DNA of 64,000 nt from a virus (Duplodnaviria > Heunggongvirae > Uroviricota > Caudoviricetes). The notes below the pieces were generated by a model that made no database searches, had not been told where the DNA came from, and worked only from the letters and a program-made list of their open reading frames with translations. Numbering within the stretch: the stretch's first letter is position 1; the number at the start of each line of letters is the position of its first letter. The position numbers were made by a program, and so were the translations under genes. Where the stretch lies: positions 54,443 through 118,442 of IMG/VR virus record IMGVR_UViG_3300013005_000022, one strand, 5' to 3'. Shown here one piece after another: positions 2,933 to 3,459 of this stretch.

Positions 2933-3373
2933 TTGTACCTCATGAAAAAAGAAATATACATACAAAATCGCAAAGCAAAATTCGATTATCATTTTCTAGA
3001 ACAATATGAGGCAGGAATTGTCTTGGTTGGCACTGAAGTAAAAAGTATCAAAGCCGCTAAAGTATCTTTAGTAGATTCCTATTGCTTCTTTGATAATGGA
3101 GAGCTATTCGTAAAGTCAATGAATATTACACCAGTTGACACTTCATTCGTACATGAACCAATGAGAATACGAAAACTTCTACTTCATCAAAAAGAACTTC
3201 GTAAATTAGAAAAAAATCTAACCGAAGGAACAACTATTGTAGTAACTGCTTTGAAAAGTGTTAATGGAAAAATCAAATGTTCAATTGCATTAGCCAAAGG
3301 TAAAAAAGACTATGATAAACGAGAGACTATCAAGAAAAGAGAATCTGATCGTTATGTTCGAGAAGAATGTTAA
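2933..3373 (+). CDS. smpB: SsrA-binding protein SmpB
   Basis: Aligns along its full length to bacterial SmpB (NRKAKFDYHF, GIVLVGTEVKS, DSYCFF, ITPVD, RKLLLHQKELRKL, ALAKGKKDYDKRETIK); the true start may be the ATG at 2942. Confidence 0.9.
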   Translation: MYLMKKEIYIQNRKAKFDYHFLEQYEAGIVLVGTEVKSIKAAKVSLVDSYCFFDNGELFVKSMNITPVDTSFVHEPMRIRKLLLHQKELRKLEKNLTEGTTIVVTALKSVNGKIKCSIALAKGKKDYDKRETIKKRESDRYVREEC

Positions 3374-3459
3374 TAACTTTTTGAAAAAAAAGTTTAAAAA
3401 AATTTTTTTATTCCAACTATTTGTATTATATTTGTAATATCAAATTAAATATAAACATT
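3368..3459 (+). promoter_or_regulatory. conserved promoter cassette, copy 1 of 8
   Basis: Each cassette has three parts. Upstream box TGTTAATAACTTT. An A/T-rich spacer. Conserved core TTATATTTGTAATATCAAATTAAATA (the TATATTTG fits the Bacteroidetes -7 box TAnnTTTG) a few nt before the ATG. Confidence 0.6.

What the first reader, a model, noticed from the sequence alone, without database searches (positions are those of the whole stretch)
3368..3459. Eight copies of a conserved ~85-nt promoter cassette carrying a Bacteroidetes-type -7 box
Copies lie at 3368, 6004, 26547, 27072, 40753, 42045, 42407 and 52118. Each has an upstream palindromic box TTGTTAATAACTTT (GTTA-A-TAAC), a 28-40 nt spacer, and a 26-nt core TTATATTTGT(A/T)ATATCAAATTAAATA ending 4-10 nt before an ATG. 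The TA..TTTG in the core matches the Bacteroidetes sigma-A -7 consensus (TAnnTTTG). The downstream genes are mostly small proteins plus a NUDIX hydrolase and the phage sigma factor, consistent with an early-gene regulon read by host RNA polymerase. The conserved upstream box suggests a shared regulator. The conserved 5' leader also explains the spurious 'YICNIKLNI' N-terminal extensions in three track ORFs.
Basis: partly seen in the sequence, partly recalled or inferred. Interest (0 to 1): 0.6.

Follow-up and report, generated by a model that had tools for sequence, protein, structure and literature searches.

The report
Phage early promoter cassettes, Bacteroidota type
Eight near-identical ~85-base cassettes in this Bacteroidota phage look like its early promoters for the host RNA polymerase, each with an invariant upstream protein-binding box and sometimes a built-in terminator; the same design recurs in over a hundred uncultured phage contigs.

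Summary
Eight + strand cassettes each run from a box, (T/A)TGTTAATAACTTT, to the ATG of a gene. Seven carry a core with a perfect Bacteroidota sigma-A -7 box (TATATTTG). The eighth, before the phage sigma-factor gene, has a weakened one.

These seven are the only intergenic + strand TAnnTTTG sites in the 64 kb. The window is a large Bacteroidota myophage.

New findings:
- Three cassettes carry a strong intrinsic terminator between box and core.
- The box-plus-core design occurs in more than 119 IMG/VR stretches.
- The box-to-core distance is quantised at about 24, 34, 44-45 and 55 nt, a 10.5-bp period. Tandem boxes sit 11-12 or 20-22 nt apart.
- Homologues of the phage sigma factor (10/10) and DNA ligase (11/14) lie directly behind such a cassette.
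- Indels against related contigs start or end at cassette edges.
- A cultured relative, Chryseobacterium phage MA9V-1, has at least 25 cassettes with the same body but no box.
- The same box sits at the same distance before a -7 box upstream of lon in eight Rikenellaceae genomes.

Best reading: early promoters read by host sigma-A polymerase, helped by a factor bound at the box. They are functionally like the PeSL cassettes of T4-type phages. All of this is inferred from sequence. No transcript ends were mapped.

The parts
3367..3459 (+). Cassette 1. Box ATGTTAATAACTTT at 3367-3380, 45-nt A/T-tract spacer, core 3426-3451 with -7 box TATATTTG at 3427-3434. The ATG at 3460 starts a 103-aa winged-helix (TrmB-like) protein.
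   Evidence: no stable hairpin
6004..6085 (+). Cassette 2. Box 6004-6017, 34-nt spacer with a weak AT-only hairpin, core 6052-6077. The ATG at 6086 starts an 89-aa protein with no family.
   Evidence: (-8.1 kcal/mol, z -3.3)
26547..26634 (+). Cassette 3. Box 26547-26560, intrinsic terminator 26562-26589 (12-bp stem, loop TTTT, then a T-run), core 26595-26620. The ATG at 26635 starts a NUDIX hydrolase.
   Evidence: -17.4 kcal/mol, z -5.2; top terminator-like site
27072..27158 (+). Cassette 4. Box ATGTTAATAACTTT at 27072-27085, 34-nt spacer without a hairpin, core 27120-27145 (1 mismatch). The ATG at 27159 starts a 139-aa protein.
40753..40836 (+). Cassette 5. Box 40753-40766, intrinsic terminator 40769-40794 (11 pairs including one G-U), core 40801-40826. 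The ATG at 40837 starts a 66-aa protein.
   Evidence: (-11.9 kcal/mol, z -3.8)
42045..42126 (+). Cassette 6. Box 42045-42058, 34-nt A/T spacer, core 42093-42118. The ATG at 42127 starts a 92-aa protein.
42407..42498 (+). Cassette 7, with a degenerate core. Perfect box 42407-42420, 34-nt spacer, core 42455-42480 with -7 box TATATTAT. The ATG at 42499 starts the phage sigma factor.
   Evidence: E 2.8e-11
52118..52220 (+). Cassette 8. Partial distal box 52118-52130, full box 52139-52152, intrinsic terminator 52155-52180, core 52187-52212. The ATG at 52221 starts a 98-aa protein.
   Evidence: -17.0 kcal/mol, z -5.0; boxes 21 nt apart
42499..43098 (+). Phage-encoded ECF-like sigma factor (regions 2 and 4). 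It is the product of a cassette-driven gene and the presumed reader of later promoter classes.
   Evidence: all 10 homologues in viral loci are cassette-driven

Best explanation
The cassettes are the phage's early transcription units' control modules.

Each cassette has four parts:
1. An orientation-specific 13-14-bp box, (T)TGTTAATAACTTT, with palindromic centre GTTA-A-TAAC. It is centred near -55 from the predicted start, or one helical turn away (-45, -65/66, -76) in other phages.
2. An A/T-rich spacer with a conserved T-run at about -36 to -33. In a minority of copies this spacer is folded into a GC-stem intrinsic terminator that stops incoming transcription.
3. A host-type sigma-A -7 box (TATATTTG at -12 to -5) with a T-rich 5' extension.
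4. A 21-31-nt A-rich, nearly G-free leader ending at the ATG, which suits Shine-Dalgarno-independent initiation in Bacteroidota.

Host RNA polymerase with sigma-A starts at these sites right after infection. It expresses small takeover proteins, nucleotide and DNA enzymes, and the phage sigma factor, which then redirects polymerase to other promoter classes.

The box is most likely the site of a dimeric DNA-binding or DNA-bending protein, or of a polymerase contact. That protein must lie on the same face of the helix as the polymerase to stimulate initiation. Because every early promoter carries the box, it is more likely a host or virion-delivered factor than a newly made phage protein.

Being repeated and nearly identical, the cassettes also serve as joints at which gene modules are gained, lost or swapped.

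Shown: the sequence anatomy, distribution, phasing, hairpins, gene contexts and synteny breaks. Inferred: which polymerase reads them, the start site, the timing, and what binds the box.
For: **Repeat and coupling.** There are eight copies, against none expected by chance, and box and core are coupled 8/8.

**Host-type promoter.**
- The -7 consensus and its position come from PMC9723704.
- The same paper's supplement says the -33 TTTG box is dispensable and most promoters have only a T-rich 5' extension. It lists a host tRNA promoter, CTTATATTTGCA, almost identical to the core.
- The cassettes are the only intergenic + strand TAnnTTTG sites.
- Sigma-70-type sites are under-represented.
- The host phylum is supported by a protein with a type IX secretion sorting domain.

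**Early class.**
- Sigma-factor homologues are cassette-driven in 10/10 cases, DNA ligase in 11/14, and DNA polymerase in 3/9.
- The sigma gene of the cultured phage MA9V-1 also sits behind a cassette.
- A different motif, CATATAAW, lies on the + strand in 12 of 12 occurrences, several of them just before an ATG, including near the tail-sheath gene.

**Box as a DNA-level site.**
- It is nearly invariant: 98 perfect, 29 with one mismatch (mostly at the first base), and only 9 with 2-3 mismatches.
- It has a single orientation.
- Among 144 cassettes the gaps peak at 34 and at 43-45 nt.
- After collapsing to 56 spacer clusters, gaps fall at 23-24 (3 clusters), 31-36 (19), 42-45 (26) and 54-56 (6). 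Vector strength peaks at a period of 10.5 (0.79).
- Tandem boxes lie 11-12 or 20-22 nt apart in 12 of 15 cases.

**Host use of the box.** In eight Rikenellaceae genomes the lon upstream region keeps the box and a -7 box 34-35 nt downstream unchanged, while the 16 nt between them and everything upstream vary.

**Terminators.**
- Searches identify them in three window cassettes.
- 36 of 156 cassettes elsewhere have a hairpin of -8 kcal/mol or stronger in the same register, with differing stem sequences.

**Joints.** Indels against L012, L076 and L010 begin or end exactly at cassette edges.
Against: - There is no experimental 5' end, timing or binding data. All functional steps are inferred.
- In most other phages the -7 box reads TATATTTA(C/T), with A in place of the consensus G in 99 of 143 cassettes. 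Reading by unmodified host sigma-A is therefore less certain there.
- There is no canonical -33 TTTG. The position holds TTTT(T/C).
- The cultured relative MA9V-1 has at least 25 cassettes with the same body but no box, so the box is not needed for the promoter type as such.
- Most box-bearing viral stretches are linked by shared proteins (116 of 136 in one cluster), so a conserved phage-encoded box-binding protein cannot be excluded.
- The host-genome evidence rests on a few orthologous groups from a scan that was cut at 120 rows, with many chance hits.
Confidence: 0.7

Rival explanations
1. The cassettes are middle or late promoters read by polymerase carrying the phage-encoded ECF-like sigma factor, not by host sigma-A.
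For: The phage encodes a sigma factor. In most related phages the -7 box departs from the host consensus at the G. The conserved positions between -36 and -23 (T-run, TC) have no described host counterpart.
Against: - The sigma gene itself lies directly behind a cassette in the window, in all 10 homologues and in MA9V-1.
- The window cores match the host consensus perfectly.
- Cassette-driven genes are early-type (DNA ligase, polymerase, NUDIX, small ORFans).
- A separate motif class, CATATAAW, precedes other genes.
Confidence: 0.08
2. The promoter is host-read, but the box is an operator for a phage-encoded repressor that shuts early transcription off, possibly together with the ATTTG-N6-CAAAT inverted repeat over the start site. 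It is not an activating or recruiting site.
For: - The box is palindromic and nearly invariant.
- The window core contains a second inverted repeat across -8 to +8 (read directly from the sequence).
- Box-bearing phages form one related group that could share such a protein.
- A winged-helix protein is the first gene behind cassette 1.
- MA9V-1 promoters work without the box.
Against: - A site at -45 to -76 does not overlap the polymerase footprint.
- Strict helical phasing over four spacing classes is the signature of face-of-helix contacts typical of activators or bending proteins.
- The same box at the same distance upstream of host lon genes argues for a host reader.
- The second inverted repeat is specific to this lineage and is not part of the wider family.
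Confidence: 0.15
3. The conservation mainly reflects spread and homogenisation of a recombination module (a mobile regulatory cassette). The box is a recombination or homing signal rather than a transcription signal.
For: - Copies within a genome resemble each other more than copies in other genomes.
- Indels against L012, L076 and L010 sit at cassette edges.
- PeSL elements of T4-type phages are proposed to behave this way (PMC4122927).
Against: - The box stays invariant across phages whose spacer, core tail and leader have all diverged. Recent copying cannot explain that.
- Its distance to the -7 box is quantised, which a recombination signal would not require.
- The cassettes have no terminal repeats or target duplications.
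- Every copy is placed precisely before an ATG on the coding strand.
Confidence: 0.07

Closest known systems
PeSL (promoter-early stem-loop) cassettes of T4-type phages (Arbiol 2010, PMC2839356; Comeau 2014, PMC4122927)
   Same: Both are short composite intergenic cassettes repeated many times in a large myophage. Both combine an AT-rich upstream part, a stem-loop just upstream of or within the promoter, a host-type early promoter, a translation leader and an ATG. Both sit before small ORFans and early genes, vary between phage lineages but are homogeneous within a genome, and lie at indel ends between relatives.
   Different: - The promoter is of the Bacteroidota -7 type, not TTGACA-N17-TATAAT.
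- There is no Shine-Dalgarno sequence.
- The hairpin is present in only 3 of 8 copies (about 23% family-wide) and overlaps the -33 region.
- There is an extra invariant 13-bp palindromic box at helically phased distances, shared across more than 100 contigs. PeSLs have no such element.
Bacteroidota sigma-A promoters (-7 TAnnTTTG, optional -33 TTTG; Bayley 2000; PMC9723704)
   Same: The -7 box matches in sequence, and the leader length implied by a start 5 nt downstream of it is typical. The cassettes share the T-rich 5' extension, and a host tRNA promoter is near-identical to the core.
   Different: The cassettes add a conserved upstream box, a fixed T-run at about -36 to -33 instead of TTTG, and a conserved initial transcribed region. 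In many related phages the G of the -7 box is A.
Class I activator sites and UP elements of E. coli promoters (CRP at -61.5, -71.5 and so on; alpha-CTD contacts) (from general knowledge)
   Same: Both are upstream sites centred near -45, -55, -65 and -76, allowed only at one-turn steps, with tandem sites one or two turns apart.
   Different: The organism, the sequence and the binding protein are all unknown here. UP elements are degenerate A/T tracts, whereas this box is a specific near-invariant palindrome. Nothing is known about alpha-CTD contacts in Bacteroidota.
Cassettes of Chryseobacterium phage MA9V-1 (OR050627), not described in its paper
   Same: At least 25 + strand copies share the same body (ttgaaaatagttgc...attttcatatgtcaaataattgt-TATATATTTGTA-leader-ATG), including one before its sigma gene. 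Some carry upstream hairpins.
   Different: They lack the TTGTTAATAAC box. Their hairpins lie further upstream.

Membership tests
Bacteroidota sigma-A promoter | -7 box TAnnTTTG | tested here: met
   TATATTTG is present in 7 of 8 copies and TATATTAT in the copy before the sigma gene. These are the only intergenic + strand matches in the window.
Bacteroidota sigma-A promoter | -33 box TTTG/TTG about 19 nt upstream of the -7 box | tested here: not met
   The position holds a conserved TTTT(T/C); G occurs in 10 of 143 cassettes. In F. psychrophilum the -33 box is reported as dispensable, being present in only 177 of about 1100 sigma-A promoters. This does not exclude membership.
Bacteroidota sigma-A promoter | Primary transcript start about 5 nt downstream of the -7 box; initiation by host holoenzyme | not testable with these tools
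   This needs dRNA-seq or 5'-RACE and in vitro transcription.
PeSL-type composite promoter-terminator cassette | Repeated intergenic cassette that combines a host-type early promoter with a stem-loop next to it | tested here: met
   There are eight copies. Three have strong hairpins and one a weak hairpin between box and -7 box. Elsewhere, 36 of 156 cassettes have hairpins in the same register.
PeSL-type composite promoter-terminator cassette | Sigma-70 -35/-10 boxes and a Shine-Dalgarno sequence at the 3' end | tested here: not met
   The promoter is of the -7 type and the leader is A-rich without GGAG. This is expected for the host phylum.
PeSL-type composite promoter-terminator cassette | Located at insertions, deletions or replacements between related genomes | tested here: met
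   - L012: W 845-6341 is absent and its place is taken by one cassette.
- L076: W 52216-52734 is absent, directly after the cassette.
- L010: a cassette joins homologues of W 23507-24394 and W 28114 onward.

These are only three comparisons, and no genome-wide statistic was computed.
PeSL-type composite promoter-terminator cassette | Recombination between cassettes demonstrated (mini-circles, deletions) | not testable with these tools
   This needs PCR or sequencing of phage populations.
Intrinsic (rho-independent) terminator | GC-containing stem, short loop, then a T-run | tested here: met
   Sites at 26562-26589, 40769-40794 and 52155-52180 have 11-12 pairs and a loop of 4, followed by a T-rich tail (TTTTTG, TTTTTTT) that begins in the last stem bases. 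The other five copies do not meet this.
Activator or UP-like upstream promoter element | Position restricted to one face of the helix relative to the core promoter | tested here: met
   Gaps cluster at 23-24, 31-36, 42-45 and 54-56 nt across 56 independent spacer clusters, with best period 10.5 bp. Tandem boxes are 11-12 or 20-22 nt apart.
Activator or UP-like upstream promoter element | Binding by a defined protein, with stimulation of transcription | not testable with these tools
   No candidate was identified. The box sequence is absent from the searchable literature in any relevant context.

The most novel reading that the evidence does not exclude
TTGTTAATAACTTT is the recognition site of a factor conserved across Bacteroidota: a host transcription activator, a nucleoid-bending protein, or a polymerase alpha-subunit contact. 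It would act from -45, -55, -65 or -76 on sigma-A promoters. A large group of Flavobacteriia phages would have built it into all their early promoters to capture host polymerase at infection. That would be the first defined upstream activating element of the unusual Bacteroidota promoter. The same box upstream of lon would link phage early transcription to a host stress or proteostasis regulon.
Probability: 0.3. Interest if true: 0.8.

Novelty: new variant of a known kind. Interest (0 to 1): 0.6.

Why it matters
Transcription control in phages of Bacteroidota is almost unmapped, and the host phylum uses an atypical promoter for which no upstream activating element has been defined.

These cassettes give four things:
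- A compact, sequence-defined early promoter class that can be found by pattern search in uncultured phages.
- A simple, testable prediction about face-of-helix activation, by moving the box 5 bp or 10 bp.
- A bait sequence for finding the binding protein.
- Ready-made strong promoter and terminator parts for genetic tools in Flavobacteriia.

They also extend the idea that repeated regulatory cassettes act as joints for gene shuffling, from T4-type phages of Proteobacteria to an unrelated host phylum.

Tried and rejected
- **Close relatives in GenBank phages.** A megablast of 20 kb gave only a 70-bp hit. A short box query gave only noise. A protein search with the sigma factor reached only distant crAss-like and Lak phage homologues.
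- **Literature.** The box sequence appears in no relevant paper. The MA9V-1 paper does not mention promoters. The Flavobacterium promoter paper by Chen 2007 is not held.
- **A universal phage protein that could bind the box.** Clustering ORFs from 136 stretches found no family present in most of them. The stretches are too short for this test.
- **Terminator-bearing cassettes as late-to-early boundaries.** The genes upstream are not clearly structural; they include an aminotransferase, a nuclease, PhoH and a phosphoesterase. I keep only the coordinate fact that the hairpin copies are the first of each cassette cluster.
- **Known RNA families.** Neither the whole window nor region 800-1320 gave any match above noise, and no tRNA or tmRNA was found.
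- **The box in F. psychrophilum mapped promoters.** There is one partial match (TGTTAATAAC, 25 nt before the -7 box of dnaE/dnaQ) in a truncated table. That is compatible with chance.
- **IHF-like reading of the box.** The resemblance to WATCAANNNNTTR was noted by eye only and was not pursued.
- **Weak ninth nhmmer hit at 8234-8313.** It lies inside a coding gene and was treated as chance.

Full report
**1.

The 26-nt core matches seven times on the + strand with at most one mismatch, against 0.00 expected. The 14-nt box matches at the eight stated places with 0-1 mismatch. A profile built from the copies recovers exactly eight (E 1e-19 to 3e-11), and the next hit has E = 0.04.

The alignment and the raw sequences show a fixed anatomy:
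- box (T/A)TGTTAATAACTTT;
- a spacer of exactly 34 nt, or 45 nt in the copy at 3367;
- core TTATATTTGT(A/T)ATATCAAATTAAATA;
- 8-14 further A-rich bases, then the ATG.

The copy at 42407 keeps a perfect box and spacing but has a decayed core (TATATTAT). Position 52118 is a partial second box, 21 nt upstream of the full one at 52139. The 'YICNIKLNI' extensions are confirmed as artefacts of an in-frame TTG just upstream of the core, with the core read through as coding sequence.

**2. Context**

All credible genes are on the + strand. Family searches identify:
- a large terminase subunit, a tail sheath, both subunits of a T4-like topoisomerase II, an exonuclease and PhoH;
- a Ro60/TROVE protein and SmpB;
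- a cohesin protein with a type IX secretion sorting domain;
- an ECF-like sigma factor.

This is a large myophage of a Bacteroidota host. It has no close relative among GenBank phages.

**3. Why these are host-type early promoters**

In Flavobacterium the sigma-A box TAnnTTTG lies at -12 to -5 (PMC9723704). Applied here, transcription would start at about core position 14 and give leaders of 21-31 nt.

That paper's supplement says most sigma-A promoters have only a T-rich extension upstream of the -7 box and that the -33 TTTG is dispensable. It lists a host tRNA promoter, CTTATATTTGCA, nearly identical to the core.

Of 36 + strand TAnnTTTG sites in the window, seven are intergenic, and those seven are the cassettes. 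E. coli-type promoter matches are fewer than in shuffled sequence.

The genes directly behind cassettes are of early type:
- in the window, a winged-helix protein, NUDIX, small ORFans and the sigma factor;
- in related viral stretches, the sigma factor in 10 of 10 cases, an ATP-dependent DNA ligase in 11 of 14, and a DNA polymerase in 3 of 9.

A second motif, CATATAAW, occurs 12 times, all on the + strand. Several copies lie within about 40 nt upstream of an ATG, and a related TATATAAT precedes the sheath gene. It is a plausible later promoter class.

**4. Terminators inside cassettes**

Three copies (26547, 40753, 52139) have an 11-12-bp stem with loop TTTT, followed by a T-rich tail, lying between the box and the -7 box. 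Their energies are -17.4, -11.9 and -17.0 kcal/mol, with z-scores of -5.2, -3.8 and -5.0. The independent scan lists them among its strongest terminator-like sites, ranked by stem pairs.

These three are the first cassette of each cluster. The hairpin-less copies at 6004, 27072, 42045 and 42407 follow another cassette within 0.4-2.6 kb. The copy at 3367 is also hairpin-less although it is first in its cluster.

Across 156 cassettes from other contigs, 36 carry a hairpin of -8 kcal/mol or stronger in the same register. Their stem sequences differ but still pair, and the loop always holds the conserved T-run.

**5. The design is widespread**

Reading them shows the same order of parts everywhere, but the spacer, the tail of the core and the leader differ between lineages and are uniform within a contig. 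In most lineages the -7 box is TATATTTA(C/T).

The box is the constant. Among 238 core-plus-ATG candidates, 98 have a perfect box, 29 have one mismatch (mostly at the first base), and 9 have 2-3 mismatches. The rest look like shuffled background. The box occurs in one orientation only.

**6. Helical phasing**

The distance from box to core is sharply bimodal at 34 and 43-45 nt, with minor classes at 23-24 and 54-56. After collapsing to 56 clusters of unrelated spacer sequence, the classes remain (3, 19, 26 and 6 clusters). The periodicity is strongest at 10.5 bp, with vector strength 0.79.

Where two boxes occur in tandem they are 11-12 or 20-22 nt apart in 12 of 15 cases. This includes the window pair at 52118/52139, which is conserved in L076.

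This is the behaviour of a protein-binding site that must face the polymerase. It is not that of an RNA signal or a recombination site.

**7. Who reads the box?**

Two lines point to a host factor.
- Every sigma-A-type promoter in the window carries the box, so the box must be compatible with the very first round of transcription.
- In eight Rikenellaceae genomes the region upstream of lon keeps TTGTTAATAACTTTTT and, 34-35 nt downstream, TTATATTTG, while the sequence between and upstream varies freely. Smaller sets show the box at a similar distance before a membrane-protein gene in three Flavobacterium species and before padR in two Prolixibacteraceae-type contigs.

Two lines argue for caution.
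- The box-bearing phages are connected by shared genes.
- MA9V-1 uses the same promoter body at 25 or more sites without the box.

I found no candidate protein and no mention of the sequence in the literature.

**8. Cassettes as joints**

Nucleotide comparison with related contigs shows three cases.
- In L012 the homologue of the gene ending at 844 is followed at once by a cassette and then by the homologue of the gene at 6367. The window instead carries 5.5 kb there (non-coding region, Ro60, SmpB, two cassettes, seven other genes).
- In L076 the cassette equivalent to 52139 is followed directly by the homologue of the gene at 52748, so two window genes (52221-52743) are an indel that begins at the cassette's ATG.
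- In L010 a cassette joins homologues of 23507-24394 and the topoisomerase gene at 28114.

This matches what Comeau and colleagues describe for PeSL elements of T4-type phages. With only three comparisons, it is an association and not a measured rate.

**9. Comparison with known systems**

Functionally the cassettes are PeSL-like: a composite early promoter with a stem-loop, repeated, sitting at mosaic joints. They are not members in the strict sense. The promoter and leader types differ, as expected for the host phylum. They also carry an extra element, the phased invariant box, that PeSLs lack.

The core qualifies as a Bacteroidota sigma-A promoter on the -7 criterion. It lacks the optional -33 TTTG. 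The box behaves like a class I activator site, but its reader is unknown.

**10. Verdict**

It is extended here by the terminators, the wide distribution, the helical phasing, the link to the phage sigma gene and the synteny breaks.

I rate it a new variant of a known kind, of moderate to good interest. The open and most interesting point is the identity of the factor that reads the box.

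Noticed in passing
window 845-3373: A 450-nt non-coding stretch ends in a strong terminator (1223-1250) and lies directly upstream of a Ro60/TROVE gene (1295-2881) and an SmpB gene (2942-3373). It may encode a Y-RNA-like or tmRNA-like RNA, but ARAGORN and Rfam find nothing.
   Followed up: partly
window 923, 8923, 21020, 27847, 50801, 53393, 55098, 58185, 63222 and others: CATATAAW occurs 12 times, all on the + strand. 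Several copies lie within about 40 nt upstream of an ATG, and a related TATATAAT precedes the tail-sheath gene at 15621. This is a candidate second (middle or late) promoter class, possibly read by the phage sigma factor.
   Followed up: partly
window 12306-12383: A 78-bp intergenic element is 97% identical, but inverted, in three large viral contigs (L001, L004, L005) whose other similarity to the window is 74-88%. It has no significant fold and contains a box-like ATGTTAATAATCAC.
   Followed up: partly
window 12261-43221 versus L012: In the related contig L012 the homologue of the gene ending at 12260 is followed directly by the homologue of the gene at 43222. The 31-kb block between them (terminase, sheath, topoisomerase, sigma) is placed differently or is absent there.
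   Followed up: no
L147, L175, L180, L184, L195, L197, L205, L206 (Rikenellaceae genome contigs): The lon protease gene has an invariant TTGTTAATAACTTTTT, then a variable ~16 nt, then a conserved GGGCACGAAAGTCGTTATATTTG. The middle part loosely resembles a sigma-54 -24/-12 element.
   Followed up: partly
L250-L254 (Chryseobacterium phage MA9V-1, OR050627): At least 25 + strand intergenic cassettes (...ttgaaaatagttgc...attttcatatgtcaaataattgtTATATATTTGTA...ATG) are present and are not mentioned in the phage's paper. Several have perfect palindromic hairpins upstream.
   Followed up: partly
window 43222-45144: A phage gene encodes a 640-aa protein with a cohesin domain and a type IX secretion C-terminal sorting domain. 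This is a host-like secretion signal and supports a Bacteroidota host.
   Followed up: no
window 13094-13771, 21083-22444, 23360-24442: Sugar-modifying genes are present: a polysaccharide deacetylase, an NDP-hexose 2,3-dehydratase and an aminotransferase. They may act in cell-surface or DNA sugar modification.
   Followed up: no
window 43114-43148: A 16-bp stem with a 3-nt loop (TCAATTGTCACTTATC-ATT-GATAGGTGACAATTGA) lies right after the sigma gene and has no clean T-run. It could be a terminator or a protein-binding palindrome.
   Followed up: no
L019, L104, L111, L129: In several related viral stretches a tRNA gene 3' end (GGTTCGAATCC...) lies directly upstream of the cassette or of the gene that precedes DNA ligase.
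   Followed up: no
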